From a virus (Duplodnaviria; Caudoviricetes), in IMG/VR virus record IMGVR_UViG_2775507097_000001, positions 1-64,000 of that record: 64,000 nt of DNA; one strand, written 5' to 3'. The position numbers and the translations under genes are program-made. The notes beneath the pieces are model-generated. The model was not told the DNA's origin, searched no databases, and worked only from the letters and a program-made list of their open reading frames with translations. Shown here piece after piece: positions 8,182 through 64,000 of the stretch (positions are counted from its first letter, which is position 1; every line of letters begins with the position of its first letter).

Positions 8182-9357
8182 TCAGATGGCGCTCGCGGTC
8201 ACCCGCGCCAGCACCCTGGCCAGGGCTTCAGGGTTCTTCTCCCGGCCTTTCTCCAAGAGGACGTGCAGCATCAGGAAGTACGGCTCGTCGACCATCTTCA
8301 GCGCCAGGTGCTGCCCCAGAATGGGGCCGTCGTCGTACGGCAAGGTACTTCCGCTGGGCAACGGCGCTTCGAGGCCCCGCTCGGTGTGGCGCGGCTCGGG
8401 GAGGACCGGCTGGATCGGATCCGGCTGCGCCTGCACGGCATCCGGTTCCAACGTGGCCGGGTTCGGCTTTACCGCGCTAAAGGTCTGCGCGGTGGTCACC
8501 GACTCGAGGACCGCCTTGCCGGATGTGGGCGGCGGCTGTGGTGGCGCGTATACCGCGGTATACGTCTCCGGGGCCGGGGCCGCCTCTACAGCCGTCGCGG
8601 GAGCCGAAGCCGGCGCGGCGGCGGGAGCAAGGACGGGGGCAAAAGCAGGGACGGGGGCGGGTTTCGGTGCGGAGGGTGCCAGGGGCGGCTGCTCCTGGTC
8701 CGTCTTCCACGCCGGATACTGCTCGTCGGATGGCATTGCCGCGTACCGGCGCATGTCCCGGAACGCCGTCAGCTTTCCGTCGAAGACGAGCTGCACCATC
8801 TCGTCGGTGAGGCGCAGCAGGCCGATCCGCTGGTTGAACCATTGCTTCGACTTGCCCATGGCCTTCGCCGCGGCGGACTGGTTGCCGTCGTGGAGAGCCA
8901 GCATCGCGTGCAGGCCGTTGGCCTCTTCGATGGGGTTGAAGTTGGCGCGCTGCACGTTCTCCGCCAGCACGGCGGAGAAGAACCGGATCCTGGACTCGGT
9001 CAGGTCGTGCCGCAGCAGCACGTCGAGACTGTCCAGGCCCACCTTGAGGGCGGCACGCCAGCGGCGCTCACCGGCCGCCATGACGTAGCGGCAGCCGTCG
9101 GGCAGATGCCCGGCGTGTTCGGGGTACAGCTTCAGGTAGGCGGCCTTGGAGACGGCCACGCAGGGCTGCAGCTGTCCGGCACGCATGCCCTCGCCGAGCT
9201 CGGCGAGTTCGGTCTCGTCGAAGTTCCGCCGCGGGTTGAGCGGTGTGGGAGCGACGGTGTCCGGGTGGACGTGGACGAGATCGGGTCGGCCGGCCCCGGG
9301 GACTGCCTCAACCTTGGCGCCGGCCAGGGAGGCGAGAGAGACGCGCTTGCCCGACAT
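8182..9357 (-). CDS. parB: ParB/Spo0J partition protein
   Basis: NPRRNF, GERRWRA arginine patch, ENVQR, HTH NQSAAAKAMGKSKQW; follows parA. Confidence 0.95.
   Translation of the reverse strand: MSGKRVSLASLAGAKVEAVPGAGRPDLVHVHPDTVAPTPLNPRRNFDETELAELGEGMRAGQLQPCVAVSKAAYLKLYPEHAGHLPDGCRYVMAAGERRWRAALKVGLDSLDVLLRHDLTESRIRFFSAVLAENVQRANFNPIEEANGLHAMLALHDGNQSAAAKAMGKSKQWFNQRIGLLRLTDEMVQLVFDGKLTAFRDMRRYAAMPSDEQYPAWKTDQEQPPLAPSAPKPAPVPAFAPVLAPAAAPASAPATAVEAAPAPETYTAVYAPPQPPPTSGKAVLESVTTAQTFSAVKPNPATLEPDAVQAQPDPIQPVLPEPRHTERGLEAPLPSGSTLPYDDGPILGQHLALKMVDEPYFLMLHVLLEKGREKNPEALARVLARVTASAI
8547..8564. promoter_or_regulatory. Candidate parS inside parB
   Basis: Perfect palindrome CGTATACCGCGGTATACG. Confidence 0.75.
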
Positions 9358-10019
9358 CAGCGGCGTCCTCCGTAACCACGCTCCAGGGCCAGGCGGAAGT
9401 AGTCCTCGCGGGCGCGCAGCGTGGTGCCGTTGTCCGCGTACTGCGTGACGACCTTGCCTTCGGAGGCGGCCCTGGTGTGGATTTTGTAGCGGCGGATGAC
9501 GGTCTTCGCGCGGGGCCAGCCCATGGCGTCGATGTACTCGATGGTGTCGTCGAGGTCGGCGCGGCCGTCGCGGGGGTCCCAGGCGTTGATGACGACGGTG
9601 TAGGGGAGGCCGCGGGGCACGATGACGCGTTCGATGGTGCGGGCGGTGGGGTCGAAGGCGAGGGGCTCGGGCGGCATGGGGACCAGGACGTCGTCGGCGA
9701 TGTCGAGGGCCGCGGCGAGGATGTGCTCGTTCTCGAGGCTGCCGGGGGTGTCGATGAAGATGTGCTGCCGCTGTTCGTTGTCGCCGAGGACGTCGTGGGT
9801 GACGGCGGCGAGGTTGACGGCGGTGGTGGTCTTCCCGACGCCGCCCTTCTGGTTCGCGATGACGTGGATCTGCGCGCCGAGGTTCTTCAGGTCGGCGAGG
9901 CTGTCGGAGTCTTCGTGCGCGGCCGCGAAGTCAAAGGGCAGGTTGTCGCCAACGCGGTCTGCCCACCAGATCGTTGATCCCTGTGGGTCGGTGGAGACAA
10001 CGAGGACTGAGGAAGGCAT
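9357..10019 (-). CDS. parA: ParA-family ATPase with rearranged motif order
   Basis: NQKGGVGKTT, STDPQGS, IFIDTPG; start re-called at ATG 10019 after GGAG. Confidence 0.92.
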   Translation of the reverse strand: MPSSVLVVSTDPQGSTIWWADRVGDNLPFDFAAAHEDSDSLADLKNLGAQIHVIANQKGGVGKTTTAVNLAAVTHDVLGDNEQRQHIFIDTPGSLENEHILAAALDIADDVLVPMPPEPLAFDPTARTIERVIVPRGLPYTVVINAWDPRDGRADLDDTIEYIDAMGWPRAKTVIRRYKIHTRAASEGKVVTQYADNGTTLRAREDYFRLALERGYGGRR

Positions 10020-10128
10020 GGTGCTCCGTTTCCGTGTGCTTCCCGAGCGGTGCTCGGTACTCGGACGGCCATAGCTTCTCAGATCGGTGCTGTGGGGTCG
10101 GGGATTGGGCAGGGTTTGCGCCTGGCGG

Positions 10129-10146
10129 CGTATACCGCGGTATACG
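10129..10146. promoter_or_regulatory. Candidate parS upstream of parA
   Basis: CGTATACCGCGGTATACG. Confidence 0.75.
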
Positions 10147-10197
10147 TCCATCGCCCTCGCCCGCGCGCCTCCCTCGCACAGTCCACCCCGGGCTCGG

Positions 10198-10215
10198 CGT
10201 ATACCGCGGTATACG
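10198..10215. promoter_or_regulatory. Candidate parS upstream of parA
   Basis: CGTATACCGCGGTATACG (20-bp palindrome with flanks). Confidence 0.75.
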
Positions 10216-10621: not shown

Positions 10622-11404
10622 TCAGGCGACGTCGAACGCGCGGCGCACCGGTGCCGCGTCGCCGCCGCGCTTGCGGGCGATCGCGGCCCGGCGGATCTGT
10701 TCGGCGCGGTCCAGGGTCGGGGCGGTGAGCCGCTCGAGCTCGGCGACGGCATCGGTGAACGCGGTCTCCGGCTCCCGGTTCGCGGGGTGGGTCAGGACCT
10801 GGTTCTGCCGCTCGATGGCGTCGGCGACGCGGGGGTCGGTGGGCGTGCTGCTGGCTTTGGCGGCCTGGTGGGCTTCGAAGGTGCGGCGGTAGCCGGGGGA
10901 AGCGGTCTCTCGCGTGCGCACGGGTGCAGGCGGCACGGCGGGCTCCTCGACGGCGGGGGACGGTGCGGCGGTGGCTCCGGCGGCCAGCACGCGGATCTTG
11001 CGGACCGCGGGCCGGCCGAGGCGGTCGTTGAGGTGCTTGGCCAGTTGCCGCTCGAAGAGCCGGATCTGCGTGGCGTACGCGGCGCTCGAGGGCCGGAGGG
11101 TGAGCAGGCCGTGTTCGGCGTCGTAGCCGACGGGCTGCACGGTGGTGGCGAGTTCGGTGGGGCAGATCTGCGTCCACTGGTCGATGAGTTCGCCGCCGCC
11201 GATGCTTTCCTTCCAGCCTTGTTCGGCGGTGAGGCGTTCGAGGATGCCGCCGAGGCCGATGGGGTCGCGGCCGCCGGTGCGGCTCTCGCGGACGGTGCGG
11301 CGGGTCTTGCGGGCGGGTTCGGCCGGCCGGGTCTTGGCGGCCGCGCGGGCGGCGGCGAGGGCCTGGCGGGCGAGGTCCGCGCCAGATGCGGTGGGCTCAG
11401 CCAC
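10622..11404 (-). CDS. DciA/DUF721-family helicase loader-like protein
   Basis: DLARQAL...RDPIGLGGIL...GW...QWTQI...LTLRPSSAAYATQIRLFERQL...AVRKIRV, the actinobacterial DUF721 pattern. Confidence 0.85.
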   Translation of the reverse strand: MAEPTASGADLARQALAAARAAAKTRPAEPARKTRRTVRESRTGGRDPIGLGGILERLTAEQGWKESIGGGELIDQWTQICPTELATTVQPVGYDAEHGLLTLRPSSAAYATQIRLFERQLAKHLNDRLGRPAVRKIRVLAAGATAAPSPAVEEPAVPPAPVRTRETASPGYRRTFEAHQAAKASSTPTDPRVADAIERQNQVLTHPANREPETAFTDAVAELERLTAPTLDRAEQIRRAAIARKRGGDAAPVRRAFDVA

Positions 11405-12092
11405 GGTGGTCCTCCATGCGGTAAACGCGGACGGGGATACCTGCGGTCTTGGCGCGGCTGATGCAGTCAGCGGTGCCGCGGGAGTTGTTCCGGGAGAAGG
11501 CCAGGACGAGATCGACGCCCATGTCGACCATCAGCTGGTTGCGGTAGTGACCGGCCAACGGGCAGTACTCGCCGTGCCTGGACATCTTGCGATGTGGCGT
11601 GGACGGGCAGGCCGGAGTGCAGGGGCCTGACCAGTTGGCAGGGAAGCCGTGGTGGAACACGCCGTTGTCAATGGCCCACTGCTTGGCGATGGCGTCAGCG
11701 CCGGTGGGGCAGTCGCCATGGACGACGGTGAAGTGGACTTCGGGTGAGACGGTCTGGACGGCATCGTGCCAGGCGTCCAGGAGCGCGTCAGCGACAGCTT
11801 GTTGGTCGGCCCAGGTGCGCGATCCGGTGACCAGGACGTGGACTTCCTGAATGCAGCCGATGACCTTCTTGATGATCGGCTCGGGAAGGGCGGCGTTCAG
11901 CTTCTCCGCCATCTTCAAAGCGACAAGGCGCAGCTGGGTCAGCCAGGCCTGGTTGATGCACTCAACGATCAGGATGCCGCGCGGTGCGTCGAACCCAGAC
12001 GGCGTCCACCCGTACGACCCGTGCGGCTGCCGGAGCACGGATGCCCATGCGGCCACTAGTTCAGCACTGATAGCTGACTCGGTCATGCCCAT
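11397..12092 (-). CDS. DciA-like domain fused to SLOG (YspA/DUF2493-type) domain
   Basis: N-term GILIVECINQAWLTQLRL...KLNAAL; C-term VLVTGSRTW...VVHGDCPTGADAIA...AGHYRNQLMV...SRGTADC. Confidence 0.8.
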   Translation of the reverse strand: MGMTESAISAELVAAWASVLRQPHGSYGWTPSGFDAPRGILIVECINQAWLTQLRLVALKMAEKLNAALPEPIIKKVIGCIQEVHVLVTGSRTWADQQAVADALLDAWHDAVQTVSPEVHFTVVHGDCPTGADAIAKQWAIDNGVFHHGFPANWSGPCTPACPSTPHRKMSRHGEYCPLAGHYRNQLMVDMGVDLVLAFSRNNSRGTADCISRAKTAGIPVRVYRMEDHRG

Positions 12093-13414
12093 GCTCCCTG
12101 ACGCTCGAGAAGGGCCTGCTTGCCGATGGCGTACTTACACAGGGGCTCGCCGTACAGATCGAGGGCGTCGTCCTTGTCCTCGTCGTAATGGGCAATGACC
12201 TCGGGCCAGATGTCCCAGTCCATCTGCGCTCGGGCCCGTTCCTCGGCGGTATACGCGCGCTTCGGCTCCGTCTCGGGGGCGCCGAACAGCGCTTCCAGGG
12301 CAGCGCGTGCGGCGGCCTGCTCGCGGCCCGCGGTGCTGTCCTCCCAGGCGACGGCCTGCGCCAGCTCCTGCTGGTGCTGGGTGTCCATGGCGATCCGGGC
12401 GCGGATGAACGCGACGGGGTTCTTGGGCTTCCAGCGCATGCCGGAGCACATGCCGTTGAGTTCGTCGGCGATGCGTAGACCGTCCCAGCCGCGGTCGGTC
12501 CAGGGCCGCAGGACGTACTCGAGACGGCGCAGCGGCACCTTCTGCGTCCAGTTGACGAGGGCTCGCACCAGCCGGATGGTCTGGCTGGCTTTCTGGACGT
12601 CGACCGCGGTACGGCGGCGGCCGTCGATCTGGCTGCTCTGGTGCGGGATCGGGGTCTTCGGCGGCCGAGCCTGCGAGGTGTAGTTAAAACCACCTACTAG
12701 ATCAACCTGACTCTCTTCTTTAACCACCGTTAGGGAAGGGGGCGCAAGGCTCTCCGAATCGGAGTTGTCCACAGGCGGGTTATCCACAGGCTTCTCCTGG
12801 CCCCGAAGGTCCACGATGATCCGAGCGGTGTACCCGGAGCCGACGATGCGGTGGCTCATGGCGTGGTCGTAGACCGGGGGGATGACCGCGGCGTACACGG
12901 TGGCGGTGGCCGCGTATCCGCCGAGGCCGAGCATGGGGCGCACGTTGGTGCGGGTGCCGTGCTGGACCCAGGCGAGGGCGCCCAGCTCCCGCAGATATGA
13001 CACGTGCCGCTTCACGGTGGCCTTGTCGACGCCGAGCCGGTGCGCGGTCTCGAGCATGCAGTAGCGGGCGTGCCCGGTGTCGTAGTCCATGCGTGCTGCG
13101 AGGTCTTCGGCGACGCGCAGCGTGGTGGCGTTCGCGCGGCCGTGCAGGCCGGCTGCGATCAGCCACGCGACTGCGCGAAGCCACCGACGCGGGCCGCTCC
13201 GGCGCGAGGCAGTGCACGCCACCTCTTGGGCGGCGCCGCGGACGAGAGCAACCTGGCCTGCACTGTAGTCGTACGCACGTTCGATTTCGACAGTAGGGGC
13301 GTATGTGTCCGGGGTGGATTCGGTGCGCTGGATGCCACCCGACCGGGGGGAGATTCCTCGCGAATCGCCCACGGTGGAGTTGCCAAGCTGACAAGAAGGG
13401 GTGCGGTGCTGCAC
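12083..13414 (-). CDS. Replication initiator (HTH Rep)
   Basis: HTH ETAHRLGVDKATVKRHVSYLRELGAL; internal DnaA boxes; adjacent to DciA and ParAB; likely start GTG 13414 (ORF open to 13495). Confidence 0.75.
   Translation of the reverse strand: MQHRTPSCQLGNSTVGDSRGISPRSGGIQRTESTPDTYAPTVEIERAYDYSAGQVALVRGAAQEVACTASRRSGPRRWLRAVAWLIAAGLHGRANATTLRVAEDLAARMDYDTGHARYCMLETAHRLGVDKATVKRHVSYLRELGALAWVQHGTRTNVRPMLGLGGYAATATVYAAVIPPVYDHAMSHRIVGSGYTARIIVDLRGQEKPVDNPPVDNSDSESLAPPSLTVVKEESQVDLVGGFNYTSQARPPKTPIPHQSSQIDGRRRTAVDVQKASQTIRLVRALVNWTQKVPLRRLEYVLRPWTDRGWDGLRIADELNGMCSGMRWKPKNPVAFIRARIAMDTQHQQELAQAVAWEDSTAGREQAAARAALEALFGAPETEPKRAYTAEERARAQMDWDIWPEVIAHYDEDKDDALDLYGEPLCKYAIGKQALLERQGAWA
12680..12788. 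other. Candidate replication origin: AT-rich stretch plus two DnaA boxes
   Basis: TTGTCCACA 12765-12773, TTATCCACA 12780-12788, AT-rich 12680-12733. Confidence 0.7.
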
Positions 13415-13642
13415 TATGTACCTGCCTTCGTTGATGGCCTTGCGGGAACGCAAAAGCCCTCGGTGGCGGTGAAGTGGTTCGTGGAGAACCTGCATTTCGC
13501 TCGCTCGGGTTGGCGCCCGGCGGGCCTTAGATCGGCATTGGCGTGCTGATCCGTGGTACGAGGGCCGCAGAGGCCCGGAGGTGTTTGGCGCACCAGTCCG
13601 GGACGCGGCCAGGCGGTCGAGGAATCTCCCGCCCAGAAAGCG

Positions 13643-22008: not shown

Positions 22009-22650
22009 CTAAGCGTCGGGGTCCTGCTTCTTCACGGCCGCCTTGCCGATCTGCGCGAGCGGGTTGTTCTCCCCCTGGCTGTCCTGCCGCGCGGGAGCGG
22101 GCTCCGCGAATTCCTTGGTGTAGGGATCCCAGTAGCGCAGGCGGACCCCCAGGATGCGCACGGGCGGGAGTTCCCGGTAGCGCTGGAACACGGTGCCTGT
22201 ACGCCCGTCCACGCCCTCAAGGGTGTTGCACTGGCGGCATAGGAGGCCACGCACCAGGCCGGTTCCGTGATCGTGGTCGACTACGAGCTGATCCACGCGC
22301 CCGCAGATCGCGCACCGGCCCGCGTGCCATTCGTACAGGACGGTGTCGGCCCGGTCCTCTGCCTCGAACTGGCTGTCAGCGGTCACCGAGTGCAGCACCT
22401 CGGCGGACTCGGGGCGCGTGATGGGCCAGCTCCAGCAGGCAGGTGCACTCAGCTGCAGTCCGCTCCTATACCTGCGGTACGGCTCCCCCCAACGTCTGTC
22501 CTTCTCGGCCTTTCGCTTCTCGTACTCGGCACGCTCTGCCGGGTTCAAGTGCGTGACACAGGCAGGGAAGGGGGACAGTCGGAAGCCACGGCAGGGCTTC
22601 CTCGAACTCGCCGTGGTCCGCCCGCAGCGTGACTCTTCGTCCATCGTCAC
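22009..22650 (-). CDS. Endonuclease VII-like (His-Me) domain protein
   Basis: CAICG...LVVDHDHGTGLVRGLLCRQCN. Confidence 0.85.
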   Translation of the reverse strand: MTMDEESRCGRTTASSRKPCRGFRLSPFPACVTHLNPAERAEYEKRKAEKDRRWGEPYRRYRSGLQLSAPACWSWPITRPESAEVLHSVTADSQFEAEDRADTVLYEWHAGRCAICGRVDQLVVDHDHGTGLVRGLLCRQCNTLEGVDGRTGTVFQRYRELPPVRILGVRLRYWDPYTKEFAEPAPARQDSQGENNPLAQIGKAAVKKQDPDA

Positions 22651-27939: not shown

Positions 27940-27972
27940 GGCTTGCTCCGGTGGGGGGTGTCGATAACAGGA

Positions 27973-28347: not shown

Positions 28348-28373
28348 GGGAGGAACCGTTCTGCGAGTAGGGG

Positions 28374-30502: not shown

Positions 30503-30518
30503 CGAGCCCTCCAGGGCA

Positions 30519-42151: not shown

Positions 42152-42219
42152 GAACCCTCCTCGGGGGCATGAAAAAAGCCCCGGTCAGCGGGGCGGGGCG
42201 AGACTGGGGGCGGGCAGGG

Positions 42220-42552: not shown

Positions 42553-42562
42553 GGTGATCTCC

Positions 42563-42973: not shown

Positions 42974-42986
42974 GGGCGGCCTCCCG

Positions 42987-44023: not shown

Positions 44024-44034
44024 GCGGGCCCCCT

Positions 44035-45808: not shown

Positions 45809-45809
45809 G

Positions 45810-45998
45810 TCACTCCTCAGTGATCTCTACGGACACCAGGTCCGGGTATTGCTCAGCGACCATCTGGAGGCCGAGCAGTGCGGTTTGGGCGATGGCCGAA
45901 ACGGCGGCGCAGACGCGACCCCCAGCGGCGTGCTCCTCGTGACCGGCCACCGTTATCTCGGTGCGCCCGTCGCCCAGATGGGCACGGACTTCGATCAC
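45810..45998 (-). CDS. prp: Prp-family (YsxB/DUF464) cysteine protease
   Basis: MIEV...ITVAGH...VCAAVSAI...QYPD.V; His/Cys dyad motifs. Confidence 0.85.
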   Translation of the reverse strand: MIEVRAHLGDGRTEITVAGHEEHAAGGRVCAAVSAIAQTALLGLQMVAEQYPDLVSVEITEE

Positions 45999-46729: not shown

Positions 46730-46819
46730 TGCGTCCGCCCCTTCAGTTGTGGACATGCGAAAGGGGCCCCATTGCGGGACCCCCTGGTGTTGGTCGATGG
46801 TCATCCCTGCCGGAAGCGG

Positions 46820-49259: not shown

Positions 49260-50879
49260 TCATCGCATCACAGTCGTCTTCCGGGAGCGCGGCGGCTCGT
49301 TGCCGCCCGCCTTGATTGCGTCCCGTCGGGCTTCCCAGGACAGGCAGCCCGCCATGGAAAGGTCGATCTTCCGAGGGGAGTCGTGGCGGTCCTTCTGGAT
49401 CACCCACATCGGCTTGCCCTCGTCGTCCTTCACTCCGGCGTTCCGCTTCACCGCATGGGCGATGTGCCGGGCGAAGGCGTCGCTGCCGTCGTGCGACAGC
49501 TCGCCGCCCGTCATTGCCGTCTTGTACGCGCGCAGGGCGAACGCCATCTGGCGGCGCCGGTGCGTCCACCACTCGGTGACGACCTTCGGGCCGTACTTGC
49601 CGGCCCAGCCCGCGATCGTCTCCTCCCAGTAGGCCGGGTCCGCGTAGACGCGCACGACCCGCCACGTTTGCATGGCCTCGTCCAGTACGGCGTTCACCTC
49701 GGCCTCGGGGACTTCCCACGATTCGGCCTCCTGCTTGTTCGCAGGCGACTCCCACACCCCGAGCACCCACTGGTGGCCCGTCTCGATGTGGGTCGCGATG
49801 AAGCCTGTCGAGTCGCTCCACTTCGACCCGTCGAAGCCGATCGCGATCGCTTCCTTCGCCGGGACGATGAAGTGCGAGTCCGCCAACTCCCGCCAGCGCC
49901 CCGGGTCGAACGCCTTCGCTGAGGCGGTTCCGGGCTGGTTCAGGAAGTACCTGCGGGCGTCCGCCGGATCGGTGTCCGGCTCCCGCATATCGCTGGCAAT
50001 CCGCTCGAGATCCATCCACTTCGCTGCGTCGCCGTACACGAACTCCAGAGCGGGCAGCAGCTGGTCGTCGTCGTGCAGGTCCTCGACATGCGGGGCTTCG
50101 CGGTGGTCAAAGAGCAGACCGCCGTCACGTACCCGGCCCGAGGCGACCGCCTTGTGGTACTCGTGCGTCGCCTCCGCCACCGAACTCTCGCCGACCGCAT
50201 ACATCGTCGACGTCTCCAGTGACCACGGCTCGGCAGCACGGCGCTTCACCAGGTTGCGGCGCACCGTCTTGTGCATGGCCTTCAGCTCGGGCAGGACGTA
50301 CAGGTGCGTCTCGTCGAAGACGCTGAACGTCTCCTTGCCGCCATCCTTCGCGGCGCCGGACGACGTCGACGGGACGATCTCGCCGCCGCCCTCGATGAAG
50401 ATGCGGCTCGACGTCTGCGCCGAACGCCCCAGGTCGATTCCCGGGAACTCGTCGCCGGCGTATTCGACGAGGTGCTCGAGCATCGCCGTGACGTTGTCGT
50501 AGGTGTTGCCGGACTGGTTCTCCTCCGTCGCCAGGCAGCGAATGAAGGGGTACACCTGCGCGCGGCCCACCGGATCACCGGCAGCGTCCCAGCCGTCGAA
50601 CCTGCACGGCCCCAGCGCCTCGAAGCACACCAGCGCGCCGGCGAGCTCGCTCTTCGCCCTGCCCTTCGGCCGGGACAGGAACGCGCGGTTGACCTTCCGG
50701 CGGCCCGTCACCGGGTCGAGCTGGTAGGCCTTGACGATGAACGCGGCCATCTCGTCGTCGATGAGCAGAGGCTCGCCCTGCACGTCGCCGGGACCGTGGC
50801 ACAGGTAGTGCTCGATCCAGTCGATGGCCTCGAAGCCGAGGGAGACGAAGCGGTCCGGGTCAGCTATCCGCCTGGCCAT
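49260..50879 (-). CDS. terL: Terminase large subunit
   Basis: RPKGRAKSE Walker A, FDETH Walker B, GFDGS..DST, KID nuclease motifs. Confidence 0.97.
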   Translation of the reverse strand: MARRIADPDRFVSLGFEAIDWIEHYLCHGPGDVQGEPLLIDDEMAAFIVKAYQLDPVTGRRKVNRAFLSRPKGRAKSELAGALVCFEALGPCRFDGWDAAGDPVGRAQVYPFIRCLATEENQSGNTYDNVTAMLEHLVEYAGDEFPGIDLGRSAQTSSRIFIEGGGEIVPSTSSGAAKDGGKETFSVFDETHLYVLPELKAMHKTVRRNLVKRRAAEPWSLETSTMYAVGESSVAEATHEYHKAVASGRVRDGGLLFDHREAPHVEDLHDDDQLLPALEFVYGDAAKWMDLERIASDMREPDTDPADARRYFLNQPGTASAKAFDPGRWRELADSHFIVPAKEAIAIGFDGSKWSDSTGFIATHIETGHQWVLGVWESPANKQEAESWEVPEAEVNAVLDEAMQTWRVVRVYADPAYWEETIAGWAGKYGPKVVTEWWTHRRRQMAFALRAYKTAMTGGELSHDGSDAFARHIAHAVKRNAGVKDDEGKPMWVIQKDRHDSPRKIDLSMAGCLSWEARRDAIKAGGNEPPRSRKTTVMR

Positions 50880-51315
50880 CGACGACCTTCAGGACGCGGT
50901 CCCTGCGTGAGGTTCCACCGCGGGGGCTTGCCGAGCGCCGGGCCACAGGCTCGATGTCCGGCTCGGCTACGGTCCAGCGCAGCCGCACCCGGTCCGCTGC
51001 CGTGCCGCCGAGGGACGCCTCGTTCAGCCGGATCTCCGCCAGCAGATCTTTCCTCGGCTCGCCCCAGTACTCCTGCACGAGTTCGGCGAGCATGTGCAGC
51101 CGCTGCCAGTCCGTCGGCAGGAACGTCGCAGCTTGCGGGCTGCTGCGCCACGTCTCGTACCAGGCCAGCGTGCGGCTGTCGTAGTCGTGTCCGCCGGGCA
51201 GTTCCGGCGTGGGTCCATCCGGTCCGTTCGCCGGGAGGACTGTCGTCGTGACCGCGTCGGCGTTGCGCCGGCGCCGCTGAGACGCATCCTTCGGCAGGGG
51301 TCCGTTTCCAGGCAT
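50860..51315 (-). CDS. terS: Terminase small subunit
   Basis: GPLPK...RRRRN, W..W..SPQA, EIRL.E..LG.T..DR.RLR. Confidence 0.9.
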   Translation of the reverse strand: MPGNGPLPKDASQRRRRNADAVTTTVLPANGPDGPTPELPGGHDYDSRTLAWYETWRSSPQAATFLPTDWQRLHMLAELVQEYWGEPRKDLLAEIRLNEASLGGTAADRVRLRWTVAEPDIEPVARRSASPRGGTSRRDRVLKVVDGQADS

Positions 51316-51515
51316 TGTGATCACCTCTGTTGGTGCCGTTGCGGCATCAGACCGACGGCCATTGCGGCGCGCCGGTAGCTACACAGGGTTACGCGATGAA
51401 GATCGATTTCCGGGGCCCAAAATCCTGTGACCCGTATGGGACCCGATAGCCCTCCCCGTAGGTCCAGATTCCATGATCCAATGACCCTTTGGCCCCTGGG
51501 TCTTGCCCGCCGAGG

Positions 51516-52040
51516 TTACGCAGCGTGATCCTGCTTGGCGCTGTTGCAACCCAGGCAGCAGGTGCGGACGTTGGCCAGGGTGTGGTCGCCGCCCTTCGAT
51601 AGCGGCGCCACGTGGTCGACGGTCGGGCTCATCACGTCGAACGGTGAGGCGTCCGGGTCGGTCGGCCGCTCGCACCGGTAGCAGACCCAGCCGTCACGCT
51701 CGAAGACCTGGAGCCGGTCGAACCGATGGATGACCGTCGCGCCGGCAAGCTGTGCTCGCTTCACCGCGTCGGTGCTCCAGTCGTAGCTGCCTGTGTGTGC
51801 GGCTGCTGGTCCGAACTGCACGATGCGGCGGCAGGCTATGGAGCAGGTGGGCCTGCGGTCTGCCTTGTGTGGGCGTCGTATCGGGGTACCGCAGGCGGTG
51901 CACGAGGTGGGGATAGCGGCGTGCCTGTTGGGCTGGTGCTTGCGGTTGTAGTGGGTGGAGCACAGGCCGAGAGCGCGGTACTTGTTCGGGCATCCAGGTT
52001 CGGTACAGGTCTTGGTGCGTGAGGGGGTGAGCGTTGGCAT
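51516..52040 (-). CDS. HNH endonuclease
   Basis: VFERDGWVCYRC...TVDHVAPLSKGG.H...N....C..CN..K. Confidence 0.92.
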   Translation of the reverse strand: MPTLTPSRTKTCTEPGCPNKYRALGLCSTHYNRKHQPNRHAAIPTSCTACGTPIRRPHKADRRPTCSIACRRIVQFGPAAAHTGSYDWSTDAVKRAQLAGATVIHRFDRLQVFERDGWVCYRCERPTDPDASPFDVMSPTVDHVAPLSKGGDHTLANVRTCCLGCNSAKQDHAA

Positions 52041-52059
52041 GTCGGTCTCCGGGTATGGC

Positions 52060-52093
52060 GAAGCCCCCGACACCCGGATGGGTCGGGGGCTTC
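52060..52093. terminator. Hairpin between the two HNH genes
   Basis: GAAGCCCCCGAC/GTCGGGGGCTTC. Confidence 0.55.
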
Positions 52094-59648: not shown

Positions 59649-60352
59649 GCTGCGACTCCTGCCGTCTCGGCAAGCACTTGTTCTTGTGCGGCGCGGAGTT
59701 GGCGCCACTCTCCCAGGGTTTCCCAGCGGGTTCCGCAGGTGGCGCATCGGACGCGGTGGGAGGTGGCTGTGGCGGTCAGTGGCTGTCCGCAGAGGGTGTT
59801 GTCGGTGCGGGTGGGGCATAGGCCGATGGCGACGCGGCCGGGCCGGCGTTCGTTGTTGACGATGGCGGTGCATTCGCCGTGGAGTTTGCGGAGGTCGTCG
59901 ATGTCCTGGCCGACGGATTCGTAGCTGGAGCAGGCCCAGAGCAGGTTGTTGGCGAGGAACGTGGCGTGGGCGGGTACGGCCTGGGCGGGGCTGCCGCGCC
60001 AGGGGGCGACTGTCCAGCCGAGCGCGTTGCGCCACGCGTCCTCGATGTCACGGAGCCGGGCTGCGACGCCGCCGGGGCCGACGAGGGCGAGAACTTCGAG
60101 CCGGGGCGGGATGGGCGGGGTCTTCGAGCCGGAGCTGCCGCCGCCTATCCGGCGGGCGCCGCGCATGAGGGCGGCTGCGGTGTTGAGCTGCCGGAACAGG
60201 GTGGGGAGTTCGGTGATGCGGCGGCTGGTGGCGTCTTCGCAGGGCCGGCAGGCCTGGCGTCCGGTTTCGGTGATCCAGAGTTGCCGGTTGCAGCGGGGGG
60301 TGCTGCAGGTCGGCCACAAATAGTCGTCGAGCGCGGTGGGCTGGTCGTGCAC
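59645..60352 (-). CDS. Zinc-ribbon-containing phage protein
   Basis: C...C, CRPC, IGLCP...CG..L...VRCATCG..W. Confidence 0.75.
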   Translation of the reverse strand: MHDQPTALDDYLWPTCSTPRCNRQLWITETGRQACRPCEDATSRRITELPTLFRQLNTAAALMRGARRIGGGSSGSKTPPIPPRLEVLALVGPGGVAARLRDIEDAWRNALGWTVAPWRGSPAQAVPAHATFLANNLLWACSSYESVGQDIDDLRKLHGECTAIVNNERRPGRVAIGLCPTRTDNTLCGQPLTATATSHRVRCATCGTRWETLGEWRQLRAAQEQVLAETAGVAA

Positions 60353-60688
60353 GGTCGGCTCCCTCGTCTGCGGGCCGGCCCCGCTGCCCGGGGGAAGTTG
60401 GGCGAGCCGGAGCACTTCGGCTTGGTGTTGATGCTGTCGCAGGTTGGGGGGTTTGTCTGAGACGCCTTCCCCCGGGCGGGACCGTGAGCGCGCATGAGGC
60501 GGCCCCGCCGGTCTGGGGATGACTGGCGGGGCCGGTGTGCTCGGGGCCTGGGGAGGGCTGGTCCGAGCTGGGTGTTGCGCGGCTTGCGGTGCTTGGGGCG
60601 GGGGGACGCTTCCGGAGCTCCGGGCCGTGCACGTCTGATGGTGGCGTACGGGCGGGGCTTTGTCTGAGCCGCTTCCCCCGGGGCTGGC

Positions 60689-61357
60689 TCACCGCCAGGG
60701 CGGGAGCCCGCCGTTGGCCCACTGCACGAGCGCGTCGCCGTTGATGAGGCGGATCGGCTGGGGCAGCATCGCGTTGGTGTCGACGGCGGCGCGGGTGAAA
60801 CCGGCGGTGGTGACGATGGCGGCAGCGTGGCAGTGGTGGATGTCGCGGTAGACGCCGTTGGTGGTCTGGACGACCGGGGAGCCGACGTTGTTGCCGTCCT
60901 GGTGGTGCTTGCACTGGATGAGGATGCGGCGTCCGTCGTTGAGGTGGACGAGGACGTCGGCGCCGCGGTCGTTGGCCTGGCCTACGGCGGTGGCTCGGGT
61001 GACGGAGGGGTCCTTCTGGGCGAGTTCGGCGATGGCGCGTTCGAAGCGGGCCGGGGTCATGCGGTGGAAGGCGTCCAGGGTGCGGCGGCCGCGGGCGGGC
61101 AGCGCGGGTCGGTAGAAGCTGAGGCCGTTGATCCTCTCGATGAGCGGGGCGAGGCGGCGGGGCCGGACGGCGCGCAGGACGAGCAGGGCACCTATCAGGG
61201 CAAGTGTGGTGGCGGTGAGGACGGGCCAGGTCTTGGCGATGCCCATGAGGGTGATGGCGATGCCCGCCCACCACCAGCCGAGGCGGGGTAAGCGGCGCCG
61301 GTAGCGGGTTCGGGTGGGGCGCTTGGTGCGGCGGGTCGTGTTGTGGGTGGCGGTCAT
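60689..61357 (-). CDS. Membrane-anchored Mrr-like (PD-(D/E)XK) nuclease-domain protein
   Basis: Two TMs; FERAIAEL, DRGADV, IQCKH, VTTAGFT, LINGD.L. Confidence 0.88.
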   Translation of the reverse strand: MTATHNTTRRTKRPTRTRYRRRLPRLGWWWAGIAITLMGIAKTWPVLTATTLALIGALLVLRAVRPRRLAPLIERINGLSFYRPALPARGRRTLDAFHRMTPARFERAIAELAQKDPSVTRATAVGQANDRGADVLVHLNDGRRILIQCKHHQDGNNVGSPVVQTTNGVYRDIHHCHAAAIVTTAGFTRAAVDTNAMLPQPIRLINGDALVQWANGGLPPWR

Positions 61358-61389
61358 GAGGGTCTCCAGGTGAGGGGCGGGGGCGATGG

Positions 61390-63669
61390 CTACGCGTCGG
61401 TGTCGTCCGGGGCCGGGCCGAGGCCGTAGTAGCCGCGGACTTCCTTGCCGTTCTCGGTCTGGCGGTGGATCTTGTCGGCCTTGACGAGGCGGGAAAGCGC
61501 GTTGTCGAAGGTGGATCCCTGGACTCCTGCGAGCTTGGCGATCTCGTTCTTGTCCTTGTAGATGACGTCGATGCCGAGTGGGTCGGAGACGTCCTCGAGT
61601 GCCCGCAGGATCTTGTCGTCGGCGCTGGCGGGCTTCTTCGGGGTGAGGTCGATGCCGCTGAACAGGACGGAGCTGCCGCCGTCTTGGTCGTCGCTGTCCT
61701 CGTCGCTGGGCAGGACGGAGCGGGCGGCGAGTTCATGCCGGTCGTCCCAGAACGGCCAGTCGGCGGGGTGGGTGATGTTGTTGGTGTCGATGTAGGGGGC
61801 GGCGTCCTCGAGGATCCACATCCGCATCATCTCGGCGTGTCCGCCGGGGCTGGCGGCGAAGGCGAGGCCGAAGGTCCGCTCGGGGTCGTCCGGCGGGGTG
61901 TTGGGGTCGTACACCATTTCGCGGTCGCCGGACCAGGCCGGGGGGATGTCGGCGGGGTTGCAGCCGGCGAAGTTCTCCGGCAGGTCGATGAGGGTCTTCT
62001 GCTGGGAGTCAGAGCGCAGCAGGATGAGGGATCCGCCGTAGAAGATGTTGTCGCGGATGGCTGCTTCGCCTCCGAGCTGGTCGAGTTGCATGATCTGGTT
62101 GGCGAGGATGATCGGCATGCCCATGGAGCGGCCCAGGCTGGCGCCGGCCTTGATGATGAACTTGGCTTCCTTGCGGTGTTCGGCGCTCTCTCCGAGGAGC
62201 TGGCTGGCCTCGTCGAAGATGAGGGGCGCCCAGGGGCGTTCGGGGCTGGGCTGGAAGTTCTTCATCTGGTCGCGTGCGGACTGTTCCACGCGGTGCATGA
62301 GGCCGTGGTACCAGATGCGCAGGGAGCCCATGGCGTCGTCGATTCCGAGGCCGGGGTGGGCGGCCATTTTGGTGATGGCTGGGTTGGAGGATCCCTTTGG
62401 GTCGGCGTAGATGATCGCGGATCCGTTGACGTGGTGGGCGAGGGCGATGAGCTGGAGGGTGCCGCCCTTTCCGGATCCGGTGACGCCGGCGACAAGGACG
62501 TGCTGGGAGCCCAGGGCGGGGTCGTGGAGCTGGATGCGGGCGGGGAAGCCGGAGACGCCGGGGCCGATCTGGATGTAGCCGTTCTTGTTGGGCTTCAGGA
62601 CGTGCAGGCCGGGGAACGCGGCGCCTTTCTGGAGGGGGTTGTGGGTCATCTTGCGGATGACGGCTTCGCGGGGGTTTTGGCGGGGCTCGTAGGAGATGAG
62701 GATCGGGGTGGTGCGGAGGGCTCCGGCGAGGGCGTTGCGGTCGGGGTGCGGAAGTCGGTCGAGGTCTTCACCTGCGACGACGAGGGCGACCTGGCCGCCG
62801 GTGTTCGGGTCGTCCTGGACGTTCTCCAGCTTGGTGCCGGCCATGAGGCCGCCGGGCTTTGACACCCACTTGCGCCATGCGCCAGTGAGGGTGGTGGGGT
62901 CGAGTTCGGCGGGTGCGACGAGGTTGACGGTGATGTGGCGTTCGCCGGCGTGGGCGCCGTGCTTGAGCTTGATCCAGCTGGGGTCCCGCTTGAAGAGGCT
63001 GGAGATGGTTTCGGCTGTGACGGTGACGGAGGATCCGGCGGGGGCGGTGATGGTGCCGGTCCAGCGGGCGGGGCTGGTGGTGCGGACGGTGAGGTCCTGG
63101 CGTTTGTGGCTGCCGGTTTCGGTGTTGGAGATGTGGTCGTACCAGCGGCGTGCGATGCGGTCGGCGTCGGTGAGGGGCAGCGTGGCCGCGGCTGCGGCGG
63201 TCTGACCGACGGCGGCGGTGGTGGCGGTCTTGGGCGGGCGGCCGAAGAAGTTGCGGAGCTTCCACGGGACGATGCCGACCGCGGCCCACCAGCCGAGGGA
63301 GACGATCCCGGGGATGGAGGGCAGGCCGAGGATGCCGGCCATGAGGGCGTCGGCGCCATCGGATCCGAGGAGGGTGCCCATTCCGAGGGCCATGCCAGTG
63401 GTGAGGGTGCTGATGAACATGGGGCTCTTGTGGGCCTGGACGATGTCCCCGGCGGGGAGGTTGCCGATCAGGCCTGCCGGTAGCCGGTTCATGTAGTTGG
63501 CGGTCATGAATCCGGCGGCGCCGCCGTAGGCGATGGCCGCGGTGAAGGCCGCGCCGCCGTCGAGGAACGGCGCGATGATGCCGGTGGCAAGGGGTGCGGC
63601 GCTGGTGATGACGGCGATGGTGCGCTCTGCGGAGGCGGCGCGGGGCTGGGCGGCGGCGGGCGTGGTCAC
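61390..63669 (-). CDS. FtsK/TraB-like conjugative DNA translocase
   Basis: N-terminal TMs, HVLVAGVTGSGKG Walker A, LIFDEA Walker B, C-terminal winged HTH EIAKLAGVQGSTFDNALSRL. Confidence 0.85.
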   Translation of the reverse strand: MTTPAAAQPRAASAERTIAVITSAAPLATGIIAPFLDGGAAFTAAIAYGGAAGFMTANYMNRLPAGLIGNLPAGDIVQAHKSPMFISTLTTGMALGMGTLLGSDGADALMAGILGLPSIPGIVSLGWWAAVGIVPWKLRNFFGRPPKTATTAAVGQTAAAAATLPLTDADRIARRWYDHISNTETGSHKRQDLTVRTTSPARWTGTITAPAGSSVTVTAETISSLFKRDPSWIKLKHGAHAGERHITVNLVAPAELDPTTLTGAWRKWVSKPGGLMAGTKLENVQDDPNTGGQVALVVAGEDLDRLPHPDRNALAGALRTTPILISYEPRQNPREAVIRKMTHNPLQKGAAFPGLHVLKPNKNGYIQIGPGVSGFPARIQLHDPALGSQHVLVAGVTGSGKGGTLQLIALAHHVNGSAIIYADPKGSSNPAITKMAAHPGLGIDDAMGSLRIWYHGLMHRVEQSARDQMKNFQPSPERPWAPLIFDEASQLLGESAEHRKEAKFIIKAGASLGRSMGMPIILANQIMQLDQLGGEAAIRDNIFYGGSLILLRSDSQQKTLIDLPENFAGCNPADIPPAWSGDREMVYDPNTPPDDPERTFGLAFAASPGGHAEMMRMWILEDAAPYIDTNNITHPADWPFWDDRHELAARSVLPSDEDSDDQDGGSSVLFSGIDLTPKKPASADDKILRALEDVSDPLGIDVIYKDKNEIAKLAGVQGSTFDNALSRLVKADKIHRQTENGKEVRGYYGLGPAPDDTDA

Positions 63670-63719
63670 GGCGTTCTCTCCTGGACTAGGGGTCGGTGCG
63701 GGCAGGGGGCGGGTGGGGG

Positions 63720-64000
63720 CTATTCCTGGGCGAACCAGGCGCGGTTGACGTCGTAGATGTGGCTGCCGACGGATGAGCGGCTGACGGCCTCTCCGATGCC
63801 GTGGTGGCTGTCCTTGTTCTGGTCGCGGGCTGCCTGTGCGGACCGGGCGGTGGTGTTGCTGGCGGCCGCGTAGCTGGTGGCTGCGGCCTCCAGACCGGCC
63901 ATGATCTTGGCGAGGTCGCGGGTTTCGCCGACCGTGGCGGAGTCGACGCCCAGGGAGCCGATGCCGTCAGCGACCTGTCCGGTGTCCCGGGCCTCTTCGA
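63720..64000 (-). CDS. Helical protein upstream of TraB-like gene (5' end outside window)
   Basis: Open frame to window edge: ...VDSATVGETRDLAKIMAGL...NRAWFAQE. Confidence 0.7.
   Translation of the reverse strand, partial: EEARDTGQVADGIGSLGVDSATVGETRDLAKIMAGLEAAATSYAAASNTTARSAQAARDQNKDSHHGIGEAVSRSSVGSHIYDVNRAWFAQE

What the first reader, a model, noticed from the sequence alone, without database searches (positions are those of the whole stretch)
8182..64000. One element with virion, plasmid replication/partition and TraB-type transfer modules: candidate conjugative phage-plasmid
Seen: an apparently intact siphovirus head/tail/lysis set, Rep with internal origin, ParAB with palindromes, a Cre-like recombinase without arm-binding domain, and an FtsK-type ATPase with TMs and C-terminal wHTH sitting in the same transcriptional direction as phage early genes, with no visible junction. 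Known: Streptomyces plasmids move as dsDNA through a single FtsK-like TraB; P1 uses Rep+Par+Cre to live as a plasmid. Inference: this element could spread both as particles and by hyphal conjugation.
Basis: partly seen in the sequence, partly recalled or inferred. Interest (0 to 1): 0.82.

Follow-up and report, generated by a model that had tools for sequence, protein, structure and literature searches.

The report
Streptomyces plasmid-phage with DNA-transfer pump
The window is part of a complete, circular 93-kb Streptomyces element that is both a plasmid and a tailed phage and also carries a plasmid-type DNA pump for hypha-to-hypha transfer; this kind has been known since plasmid-phage pZL12 (2010), so it is a well-supported new member, not a new kind.

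Summary
Contig C29 (93,191 bp; the window is its first 64 kb) closes on itself in an independent assembly of the reads, carries no chromosomal genes, and is collinear with Streptomyces plasmid-phage pZL12 and with dozens of circular 85-94 kb Streptomyces plasmids.

- **Plasmid part:** ParAB with three 16-bp palindromes, and a Rep gene holding the contig's only two DnaA boxes beside its most AT-rich spot. pZL12 has the same layout. There are also two DciA-like genes and one Xer-like tyrosine recombinase.
- **Phage part:** a complete siphovirus packaging, head, tail and lysis set.
- **Transfer part:** a 759-aa membrane ATPase with an FtsK/TcpA fold and a C-terminal winged helix. Its motor is homologous to SCP2 TraA, the major transfer protein (hhalign 98.6%). 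It has no match in 50,697 phage records.

The element is a three-way mosaic:
- backbone like pZL12;
- Tra cassette like ~90-kb plasmids such as NBC_01435 unnamed2;
- 30-kb virion module 77-93% identical in DNA to a chromosomal, probably integrated, prophage of Streptomyces sp. NBC_01384.

Spread by both virions and conjugation is plausible but untested. pZL12 is the experimental precedent. This scan has noted the same theme in at least 75 other genomes. Verdict: new member of a known kind.

The parts
458..964 (-). Single-strand DNA-binding protein (early/replication region)
   Evidence: Pfam SSB 1.5e-23. 46% identical to pZL12.1c and 73% to the NBC_01435 plasmid SSB.
8182..9357 (-). ParB partition protein
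   Evidence: Pfam ParB_N 1.8e-10 and HTH_ParB 3.6e-8. 42% identical to pZL12.16c.
9357..10019 (-). ParA partition ATPase
   Evidence: Pfam AAA_31/CbiA P-loop hits. 64% identical over 218 aa to pZL12.17c ParA.
10130..10214 (.). Two copies of the 16-bp palindrome GTATACCGCGGTATAC upstream of parA (candidate parS/operator). A third copy lies at 8548-8563 inside parB.
   Evidence: These are the only three copies in 93 kb. The core TACCGCGGTA has the same layout in pZL12, at 10392 and 8843.
10622..12056 (-). Two tandem DciA-like genes (10622-11404; 11397-12056, the latter with a YspA/SLOG domain). Probable helicase-loader function.
   Evidence: Pfam DciA 1.4e-15; YAcAr 8.6e-14 plus DciA 3.4e-5.
12083..13453 (-). 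Rep-like initiator, homologue of pZL12.20c
   Evidence: 41% identical over 477 aa to pZL12.20c. No Pfam or NCBIfam family. Its role as initiator is inferred from position and from the internal origin-like site.
12680..12790 (.). Candidate replication origin inside rep: an AT-rich stretch followed by two DnaA boxes 15 bp apart
   Evidence: The contig's only two TTRTCCACA boxes are here (expected 0.21 per window). The lowest-GC 80-bp window of the contig is at 12681. pZL12 likewise has its only two boxes inside pZL12.20c.
22009..22650 (-). Endonuclease VII-like protein
   Evidence: Pfam Endonuclease_7 6e-15. 55% identical to pZL12.35c.
22647..23678 (-). Xer/Cre-like tyrosine recombinase, the only recombinase on the contig
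   Evidence: Pfam Phage_integrase 7e-13. XerC/XerD models align over residues 40-317. 80% identical to pZL12.36c. It is the only PF00589 hit on C29, and there is no PF00239 hit.
27595..29558 (-). Lysis cassette: small membrane protein, holin (27973-28347), PG-binding lysin (28374-29558)
   Evidence: PHROG holin 4.7e-26. PG_binding_1 at 1.1e-4, just under the cut-off. Homologues exist in pZL12 and the NBC_01435 plasmid.
29555..34444 (-). Tail tip and minor tail proteins, including Dit (33641-34444)
   Evidence: SPP1_Dit 6.6e-8. PHROG minor tail and virion structural proteins.
34527..39803 (-). Tape measure protein (1758 aa)
   Evidence: PhageMin_Tail 4.4e-44. 85% identical to the NBC_01384 prophage TMP; dN/dS 0.19.
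39841..44400 (-). Tail assembly genes, major tail protein (41672-42151), neck and head-tail adaptors
   Evidence: PHROG major tail protein 4e-28, tail completion/Neck1, head-tail adaptor 5e-30.
44471..47857 (-). Major capsid protein (44471-45808), Prp-like peptidase (45810-45998), scaffold (45995-46804), head maturation protease/MuF-like (46820-47857)
   Evidence: TIGR04387 capsid 3.9e-14. PHROG major head 2e-24, peptidase 1.5e-7, head maturation protease 1e-60. Phage_scaffold weak.
47859..49241 (-). Portal protein (SPP1 Gp6-like)
   Evidence: Pfam SPP1_portal 1.3e-49. 94% identical to the NBC_01384 prophage portal; dN/dS 0.10.
49260..52073 (-). Large terminase (49260-50879), TerS-like (50860-51315), HNH endonuclease (51516-52073)
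   Evidence: PHROG terminase large subunit 5.9e-69. tblastn to 2042 actinophage records, best 42%. HNH 2e-8.
60351..61410 (.). Comparative module joint between the virion module and the Tra cassette. It holds a membrane-anchored Mrr-like nuclease gene (60689-61357, minus strand) and two copies of a 52-nt repeat with hairpins.
   Evidence: DNA similarity to the NBC_01384 prophage ends at 60351. Similarity to the NBC_01435 plasmid starts at 61410. Mrr_cat 7e-21. Repeats.
61390..63669 (-). FtsK-like membrane ATPase with C-terminal winged helix: candidate conjugative dsDNA translocase (SCP2 TraX+TraA equivalent)
   Evidence: AF2 model pLDDT 72.7. Foldseek top hits are the FtsK motor and TcpA, at 2e-8 to 1e-7. 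hhalign to SCP2 TraA 98.6%, E 1e-15. Collinear weak match to SCP2 TraX. 174 plasmid records and no phage record hold a homologue.
63720..64000 (-). Start of the upstream Tra-operon genes. This 127-aa gene runs to 64103. Beyond the window lie a 675-aa Gly/Ser/Lys/Pro-rich protein (64096-66123), small membrane and DUF6197 proteins, and a four-TM protein (67400-68413).
   Evidence: 40-65% identical and collinear with genes 2859-6275 of plasmid NZ_CP109494.1. The order matches SCP2.23c (glycine-rich, 710 aa), traB (137 aa), traX, traA. TM predictions.

Best explanation
C29 is a complete circular 93.2-kb phage-plasmid of a Streptomyces strain, belonging to the pZL12 family.

**Shown by sequence and comparison:**
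- The contig closes on itself.
- It carries a ParABS partition set.
- It carries a pZL12.20c-type Rep gene with an origin-like site inside it (two DnaA boxes and an AT-rich stretch), followed by two DciA-like genes.
- It carries a single Xer/Cre-like recombinase.
- It carries a complete siphovirus packaging, head, tail and lysis module under purifying selection.
- It carries an SCP2-type tra operon whose main product is a membrane-anchored FtsK-fold ATPase with a C-terminal winged helix.

**Inferred mechanism:**
- In the prophage state it replicates as a theta plasmid, using host DnaA and DnaB. ParAB partitions it, and the recombinase resolves multimers.
- On induction it packages its DNA into siphovirus particles and lyses the hyphal compartment.
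- Independently, the Tra ATPase assembles as a ring at the membrane or hyphal tip, binds the plasmid through its winged helix, and pumps unprocessed double-stranded DNA into a neighbouring hypha. The adjacent membrane proteins help intramycelial spread, as described for Streptomyces TraB/TraA systems.

The element arose by module exchange: a pZL12-like backbone, a Tra cassette shared with other ~90-kb and larger Streptomyces plasmids, and a virion module shared with an integrating prophage.
For: **Circularity and extrachromosomal state**
- Junction across the contig ends.
- No sequence shared with any other contig.
- k-mer depth 848 and 565 for C29 pieces against 40 for an unrelated 12.9-kb contig of the same run. 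This is a hint only.

**Family membership**
- Collinear protein matches to pZL12: ParA 64%, ParB 42%, DciA-like 50%, Rep 41%, EndoVII 55%, recombinase 80%.
- Collinear matches to circular plasmid NZ_CP109494.1: Tra 69%, plus four upstream genes at 40-65%.
- Gene order runs collinear across the contig ends, as in both circular relatives.

**Origin and parS**
-.

**Virion module**
- Annotation.
- dN/dS of 0.09-0.27 against the NBC_01384 prophage copy.

**Tra ATPase**
- Fold.
- SCP2 TraA homology.
- Homologues on 174 actinomycete plasmids, including non-phage plasmids of 100-437 kb, and in none of 50,697 phage records.
- A 72%-identical relative carries an added FtsK_gamma domain.
- Operon layout like SCP2 (glycine-rich protein, small protein, TraX/TraA).

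**Precedent**
- pZL12 is treated as an extrachromosomal temperate phage (PMC7157519).
Against: - No experiment exists on this element.
- No clt/TRS-type docking repeats could be identified near the tra gene. The densest 8-mer cluster encodes peptide repeats in the glycine-rich protein.
- The ATPase is not orthologous to pZL12's FtsK-like gene 71c (hhalign E 0.007, probability 5%), so the pZL12 transfer data apply by analogy only.
- It does not reach the Pfam FtsK_SpoIIIE cut-off.
- Family member pSAM1 gave <0.01% of virome reads in one medium (PMC11302927), so virion production in this family is not guaranteed.
- The junction evidence comes from what is probably the same sample as the assembly. 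It would look the same for a head-to-tail concatemer.
Confidence: 0.72

Rival explanations
1. It is a conjugative plasmid carrying a cryptic or defective virion module. It replicates and transfers as a plasmid but no longer makes infectious particles.
For: Family member pSAM1 yielded almost no virome reads, and its authors call its phage 'defective and/or not induced'. No repressor/induction switch or pac/cos site was identified here.
Against: All packaging, head, tail and lysis genes are present as uninterrupted, tightly spaced ORFs. The module is 77-93% identical in DNA to a chromosomal prophage, with dN/dS of 0.09-0.27. pZL12 itself is reported to form plaques (title of Zhong et al. 2010, cited).
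Confidence: 0.17
2. It is a true phage-plasmid, but the FtsK-like ATPase does not mediate conjugation. It might instead serve plasmid or phage DNA segregation into hyphal compartments or spores, or exclusion of incoming DNA.
For: No clt was found. No orthology to the tested pZL12 tra gene. The FtsK fold is also used for chromosome segregation and protein secretion: EccC and EssC appear among the fold hits.
Against: The motor is homologous to SCP2 TraA, named the major plasmid transfer protein. The same protein family sits on many non-phage Streptomyces plasmids and on no sequenced phage. The operon layout matches the SCP2 tra region. It occupies the same slot as the pZL12 FtsK-like gene.
Confidence: 0.09
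3. It is an assembly chimera, or an integrated composite of a prophage next to a separate integrative conjugative element.
For: Comparative module joints exist at about 30.5 kb and 60.35-61.41 kb. The closest virion module lies in a chromosome.
Against: An independent assembly joins the contig's end to its start. There are no chromosomal genes and no second recombinase. The same Tra-next-to-virion layout is found in many finished circular plasmids of the same size.
Confidence: 0.02

Closest known systems
Streptomyces plasmid-phage pZL12 / phage ZL12 (GQ919031; Zhong et al. 2010, J Bacteriol 192:3747)
   Same: - Circular and about 90 kb, with the same overall gene order.
- Homologous ParA (64%), ParB, DciA-like, Rep (41%, with the only two DnaA boxes inside the gene), EndoVII and recombinase (80%).
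- A siphovirus module.
- An FtsK-like membrane ATPase, a large protein and a four-TM protein sitting between the early genes and the terminase.
   Different: - The Tra cassette is not detectably orthologous.
- Terminase, portal and capsid have no BLAST match to pZL12.
- The pZL12 paper itself is not held, so its experimental details are known only through citing papers.
SCP2 transfer operon of S. coelicolor (SCP2.23c-traB-traX-traA; AL645771)
   Same: - The ATPase motor is homologous to TraA (hhalign 98.6%, 32% identity over 268 columns).
- The N-terminal part aligns weakly and collinearly with TraX.
- Upstream lie a ~700-aa glycine-rich protein and a ~130-aa protein in the same order.
   Different: - SCP2 is a 31-kb plasmid without phage genes.
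- TraX and TraA are separate ORFs there and one 759-aa protein here.
- The upstream proteins show no significant sequence similarity.
Circular 85-94 kb Streptomyces plasmids in PLSDB (e.g. NZ_CP109494.1, CP109516.1, pSAM1 NZ_CP012383.1, pSLE1 NZ_LN831788.1)
   Same: - Same size and same backbone.
- The g88-type Tra gene (47-69% identity) lies just upstream of the terminase and virion genes.
- The PGAP annotation lists terminase, capsid, tape measure, ParAB and integrase.
- pSLE1 was annotated by its synteny to pZL12 (PMC4487206).
   Different: - Their head modules differ from C29's: the portal matches only 2 of them, at 40%.
- C29 has an extra ~9 kb between the Tra gene and the terminase, shared in part with the NBC_01384 prophage.
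Chromosomal, probably integrated, prophage of Streptomyces sp. NBC_01384 (NZ_CP109559.1, about 8.019-8.048 Mb)
   Same: It is collinear with C29 30514-60351 at 77-93% DNA identity and 59-98% protein identity. This stretch is the whole virion module plus the HNH, GH16-like and neighbouring genes.
   Different: It lies in a chromosome with a tyrosine integrase 6.5 kb beyond the module. No homologue of C29's ParAB, Rep, recombinase or Tra lies within about 60 kb, and none of the Tra ATPase anywhere in that genome.
Phage-plasmid P1 of E. coli (Rep + ParAB + Cre)
   Same: This is a functional analogy only: a prophage kept as a partitioned low-copy plasmid, with a tyrosine recombinase that could resolve dimers.
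   Different: No homology was tested or claimed. P1 has no conjugation genes. The main phage-plasmid survey read here looked for relaxase and mating-pair genes (CONJscan) and does not mention Streptomyces (PMC7969092).

Membership tests
pZL12-like Streptomyces plasmid-phages | Circular extrachromosomal replicon of about 90 kb | tested here: met
   93,191 bp. End-to-start junction in an independent assembly. No shared sequence with other contigs.
pZL12-like Streptomyces plasmid-phages | Homologous maintenance backbone (ParAB, pZL12.20c-type Rep with internal DnaA boxes, recombinase) in the same order | tested here: met
   41-80% protein identity and collinear. Conserved DnaA-box pair and parS core.
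pZL12-like Streptomyces plasmid-phages | Complete tailed-phage structural and lysis module | tested here: met
   However, the head genes are not homologous to pZL12's by BLAST.
pZL12-like Streptomyces plasmid-phages | tra locus orthologous to pZL12's FtsK-like gene and neighbours | tested here: not met
   No BLAST match. hhalign E 0.007, probability 5%. Only position and architecture correspond.
pZL12-like Streptomyces plasmid-phages | Demonstrated plaque formation, lysogeny as a plasmid, and conjugal transfer | not testable with these tools
   Needs induction, infection and mating experiments.
Streptomyces FtsK-like conjugative dsDNA translocases (TraB / SCP2 TraA type) | FtsK-type motor domain with Walker A and B | tested here: met
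   Foldseek top hits are FtsK motor 2ius/6t8g and TcpA 6o1x. The Walker motifs are invariant in 39 homologues.
Streptomyces FtsK-like conjugative dsDNA translocases (TraB / SCP2 TraA type) | Sequence homology to an experimentally defined transfer protein | tested here: met
   hhalign against SCP2 TraA: 98.6%, E 1.1e-15, 268 columns. tblastn E 4e-9.
Streptomyces FtsK-like conjugative dsDNA translocases (TraB / SCP2 TraA type) | N-terminal membrane association and C-terminal winged-helix DNA-recognition domain | tested here: met
   Predicted helices 12-142 and hydrophobic segments. Helix-helix-helix-strand-strand at 683-750. Relative P0017 adds an FtsK_gamma domain. These are predictions only.
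Streptomyces FtsK-like conjugative dsDNA translocases (TraB / SCP2 TraA type) | Match to Pfam FtsK_SpoIIIE (PF01580) above the cut-off | tested here: not met
   No hit; only HerA_C at 19.4 bits, below its cut-off of 22. SCP2 TraA itself scores only 16 bits against a cut-off of 24, so this model does not capture this subfamily.
Streptomyces FtsK-like conjugative dsDNA translocases (TraB / SCP2 TraA type) | Cis-acting clt locus with short repeated recognition sequences near tra | tested here: inconclusive
   No convincing repeat cluster. The pSVH1 motif GACCCGGA is scattered, not clustered.
VirD4/TrwB/TraD type IV coupling proteins (the name PGAP gives many homologues) | Match to coupling-protein models; partnered relaxase and T4SS | tested here: not met
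   TraD and TrbE models score 16-17 bits against cut-offs of 366-810. No TrwB or VirD4 entry is among the fold matches listed. MOB-suite types 117 of 174 related plasmids as non-mobilizable, including NZ_CP109494.1. A relaxase search on C29 itself was not run.

The most novel reading that the evidence does not exclude
The ~90-kb Streptomyces phage-plasmids form a widespread lineage that really does use two horizontal routes, virions and FtsK-type hyphal conjugation. In this lineage both the transfer cassette (SCP2-TraA type here, a different type in pZL12) and the virion module (here taken from, or given to, an integrating prophage) are swapped as units at fixed slots. C29 would be an active, multi-copy example. 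That would contradict the working assumption of phage-plasmid surveys that such elements are not conjugative, because those surveys look for relaxase and T4SS genes and so cannot see this system.
Probability: 0.4. Interest if true: 0.6.

Novelty: new member of a known kind. Interest (0 to 1): 0.4.

Why it matters
An element that can leave a cell either as a virus particle or by pumping its DNA into a neighbouring hypha blurs the line between phage and conjugative plasmid. It would have two host-range filters instead of one.

[quoted passage not shown] The data here show instead a large family. Full-length homologues of the C29 ATPase are found in 62 PLSDB records and in 20 of 400 sampled Streptomycetaceae species genomes.

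C29 documents module exchange in three directions: with pZL12, with ordinary plasmids, and with an integrating prophage.

For Streptomyces genetics, such elements are candidate natural vectors that could move about 90 kb between strains by either route. The concept itself is not new, and nothing here is experimental.

Tried and rejected
- **pZL12 paper.** The paper (PMC2897331) is not held. Its results are cited only through other papers.
- **Orthology of the ATPase to pZL12.71c.** Rejected.
- **Phage records.** tblastn of the ATPase against 50,697 phage records gave no match, even though pZL12 is in that collection.
- **Sequence searches of PDB and NCBIfam.** Only P-loop-level hits.
- **clt search.**
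  - 8-10-mer clustering, 1-mismatch 8-mer families, and the pSVH1 motif gave nothing convincing.
  - The top cluster (64.9-65.2 kb) is explained by peptide repeats in the glycine-rich protein.
  - CCCGGGGGAAG occurs three times at 60.39-60.68 kb. These copies sit in hairpin and terminator-like repeats and are absent from the two relatives compared, pZL12 and NZ_CP109494.1.
- **Exact terminal overlap of the contig.** None. Closure was shown another way.
- **Terminal inverted repeats, as in linear plasmids.** None.
- **Tape measure as a marker for co-occurrence in GTDB species genomes.** Mostly on different contigs, or missed under a stricter filter. Only G250 has both on one contig, so this is not informative.
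- **Run X23 (another strain, raw reads).** It lacks the element, so it gave no coverage or end information.
- **Similarity between the upstream Tra-operon proteins and SCP2.23c or TraB.** Not significant.
- **att sites of the NBC_01384 prophage.** Not mapped.


Full report
**What the window is.** The window is the first 64 kb of contig C29 (93,191 bp, 68.7% G+C) of an 11.67-Mb, 98-contig actinomycete assembly. All close protein relatives are from Streptomyces or Kitasatospora. I called 139 genes by third-position G+C. No tRNA genes are present in the window.

**The observation.**
- ParB (8182-9357) and ParA (9357-10019) match their Pfam families.
- The 16-bp perfect palindrome GTATACCGCGGTATAC occurs exactly three times in the 93 kb: twice just upstream of parA and once inside parB. 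Its 10-bp core has the same arrangement in pZL12.
- The gene at 12083-13453 has no family assignment but is 41% identical to pZL12.20c.
- That ORF contains the only two DnaA boxes of the whole contig (12765 and 12780; 0.21 expected by chance per window), next to the most AT-rich 80 bp of the contig. In pZL12 the only two boxes in 90 kb also lie inside the homologous gene. The 'Rep with internal origin' is therefore a conserved feature.
- Two DciA-like genes follow, the second fused to a SLOG domain.
- The recombinase (22647-23678) is a 343-aa Xer/Cre-type tyrosine recombinase, 80% identical to pZL12.36c. It is the only recombinase on the contig.
- From 27.6 to 52.1 kb, all on the minus strand, lies a complete siphovirus set:
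  - lysis: holin and PG-binding lysin;
  - tail: minor tail proteins, Dit, a 1758-aa tape measure and the major tail protein;
  - head-tail joining: adaptors;
  - head: capsid, a small Prp-like peptidase, scaffold, protease and an SPP1-type portal;
  - packaging: TerL, a TerS-like protein and an HNH endonuclease.

**The ATPase.**
- The 759-aa product of 61390-63669 gets only P-loop-level hits from Pfam, NCBIfam and PDB sequence searches.
- I aligned 39 homologues. The AlphaFold model built on them has mean pLDDT 72.7 and shows three parts:
  - an N-terminal bundle of hydrophobic helices (12-142);
  - a mixed domain followed by a RecA-like core with Walker A (395-404) and Walker B (483-489);
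  - a C-terminal helix-helix-helix-strand-strand winged helix (683-750).
- Foldseek against the PDB ranks the FtsK motor domain and the FtsK-like conjugation coupling protein TcpA of pCW3 first (E 2e-8 to 1e-7). EccC/EssC and HerA follow.
- A 72%-identical relative carries an additional bona fide FtsK_gamma domain.
- tblastn against 72,556 plasmids finds homologues in 174 records, all actinomycete. They include plain plasmids of 100-437 kb, small plasmids where the gene is annotated 'transfer protein', and SCP2 traA.
- A profile comparison with SCP2 TraA gives 98.6% probability (E 1e-15, 268 columns, 32% identity).
- The preceding SCP2 gene traX aligns weakly but collinearly with the N-terminal part, so the C29 protein looks like TraX and TraA in one chain.
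- Upstream, beyond the window's end, come a 127-aa protein and a 675-aa Gly/Ser/Lys/Pro-rich protein. This is the same order as SCP2 traB (137 aa) and the 'glycine-rich protein' SCP2.23c (710 aa). Small membrane proteins and a four-TM protein follow.
- None of 50,697 phage records holds a homologue.
- I therefore file it as an SCP2-TraA-type member of the Streptomyces FtsK-like transfer ATPases, not as a VirD4-type coupling protein, despite the name PGAP gives many homologues.

**What the whole thing is.**
- C29 is collinear with plasmid-phage pZL12 (GQ919031, 90,435 bp, circular) and with circular plasmids such as NZ_CP109494.1 (90,308 bp).
- The gene order continues across the contig's ends, exactly as it continues around both circles.
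- Laying public data on the contig's end gave direct evidence:
  - In run X1, a Logan contig of 10,236 nt begins on the last 20 bases of C29.
  - At its positions 9811-9831 it contains a 21-mer that occurs in C29 only at 9791-9811. That is the offset expected if the end of C29 is followed immediately by its start.
- The molecule is therefore circular, or a head-to-tail concatemer, and complete.
- No other contig shares sequence with it.
- A second strain with the same species label lacks it.
- Its k-mer depth in X1 is 565-848, against 40 for one unrelated contig. This is a single-comparator hint of high copy number or ongoing induction.

**Mosaic structure.**
- Protein and DNA comparisons split C29 into three parts:
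  - The maintenance and early backbone resembles pZL12.
  - The Tra cassette (61410-67337) resembles the NBC_01435-type plasmids at 68-76% DNA identity and is not orthologous to pZL12's FtsK-like gene.
  - The block 30514-60351 is the virion module plus the HNH, GH16-like and neighbouring genes. It is 77-93% identical in DNA to a chromosomal, probably integrated, prophage of Streptomyces sp. NBC_01384.
- That prophage has its own integrase nearby. No homologue of C29's ParAB, Rep, recombinase or Tra lies within about 60 kb.
- dN/dS between the two copies is 0.09-0.27 for TerL, portal, protease, capsid, tape measure and tail genes. This argues that the module has been kept functional.
- A comparative joint therefore lies between 60351 and 61410. 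It contains a membrane-anchored Mrr-like nuclease gene and two 52-nt hairpin-bearing repeats.
- This is a recombination joint between modules. It is not the boundary of a separately integrated element.

**How common the linkage is.**
- Of 22 PLSDB plasmids of 85-94 kb with a full-length homologue of the ATPase, at least 17 are also hit by C29's tape measure or portal.
- Other plasmids of the same size with related tape measures carry a different Tra type or only weak matches. These include pSLE1, which its authors annotated from pZL12 (PMC4487206).
- In a sample of 400 Streptomycetaceae species genomes, 20 have a close homologue of the ATPase.
- Many homologues in the large protein collection sit on contigs of 85-98 kb.
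- Rhizosphere and soil metagenomes hold 21-31% of the sampled 31-mers of the head module. I did not lay most of these, so I treat this as a lead only.

**Literature.**
[quoted passage not shown] - pSAM1 of S. ambofaciens is a family member, with an ATPase 53% identical to C29's. It is strongly expressed in HT medium but gave <0.01% of virome reads in BM medium (PMC11302927).
- The main phage-plasmid survey searched only for relaxase and mating-pair genes and does not mention Streptomyces (PMC7969092).

**Mechanism and odds.** These odds are for separate propositions and are not the same as the confidences given for the explanations.
- About 0.9 that C29 is an autonomous circular phage-plasmid of this family.
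- About 0.7 that the ATPase operon is a conjugal transfer system.
- About 0.6 that the virion module is functional.
- About 0.4-0.5 that both routes work in this strain.
- The steps that are shown and those that are inferred are separated in the best explanation.
- The weakest points are the missing clt, the lack of orthology to the one tested tra locus, and the absence of any experiment.

**Verdict.** The finding is real and the reading is supported. It is a new member of a kind known since 2010, and this scan has already noted the same theme in at least 75 other genomes. The added value lies in four results: the closure of the circle, the SCP2-type identity of the Tra cassette, the conserved origin inside rep, and the three-way module exchange.

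Noticed in passing
window 332-391, 5924-5985; C29 75034-75072 and 78468-78521 (L005 11034-11072, 14468-14521): A ~40-60-nt sequence is repeated four times in intergenic regions of the element at 84-95% identity. It might be a shared operator, terminator or promoter element.
   Followed up: no
C29 93070-93191 (L006 9070-9191) and window 1-120: The contig break lies in a very G-rich stretch with nested hairpins. That probably explains why the assembler did not close the circle.
   Followed up: partly
window 45810-45998: A 62-aa Prp-like peptidase gene (PHROG 'peptidase', 1.5e-7) lies between scaffold and capsid. It is conserved at 77% in the NBC_01384 prophage. Earlier notes of this scan flagged a shared N-terminal motif on scaffold and capsid.
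   Followed up: partly
window 10622-12056: Two DciA-like genes lie in tandem directly after rep, the second fused to a YspA/SLOG domain. No helicase gene was seen on the element.
   Followed up: partly
window 60689-61357: An Mrr-type restriction endonuclease domain (7e-21) sits behind a predicted membrane helix, exactly in the joint between the virion module and the Tra cassette. It has no counterpart in pZL12 or in NZ_CP109494.1.
   Followed up: no
window 56160-56984: A glycoside hydrolase family 16-like protein lies between the Tra block and the terminase. It is 72% identical in the NBC_01384 prophage, with a relatively high dN/dS of 0.5.
   Followed up: no
window 9357-10019: The ParA gives Pfam matches only over about 23 residues around the P-loop (51-73), although it is 64% identical to pZL12 ParA over 218 aa.
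   Followed up: no
run X1, laid on L006:5000-9191: The k-mer depth of C29 pieces (848 and 565) is 14- to 21-fold that of the one unrelated contig seen in the same run (40). This suggests multi-copy state or spontaneous induction.
   Followed up: partly
NZ_CP109559.1 about 8.019-8.048 Mb (L029-L031): A chromosomal prophage of Streptomyces sp. NBC_01384 shares the whole 30-kb late module with C29. It has a tyrosine integrase at 8,054,831-8,055,364 and no plasmid genes. This is a clear case of module exchange between an integrating phage and a phage-plasmid.
   Followed up: partly
C29 75446-76492 and 83317-84393 (L005 11446-12492, 19317-20393): The part of the element beyond the window carries an N6/N4 DNA methylase and a LuxR-type regulator. 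It also carries an HTH-TPR regulator at 71840-73045.
   Followed up: no
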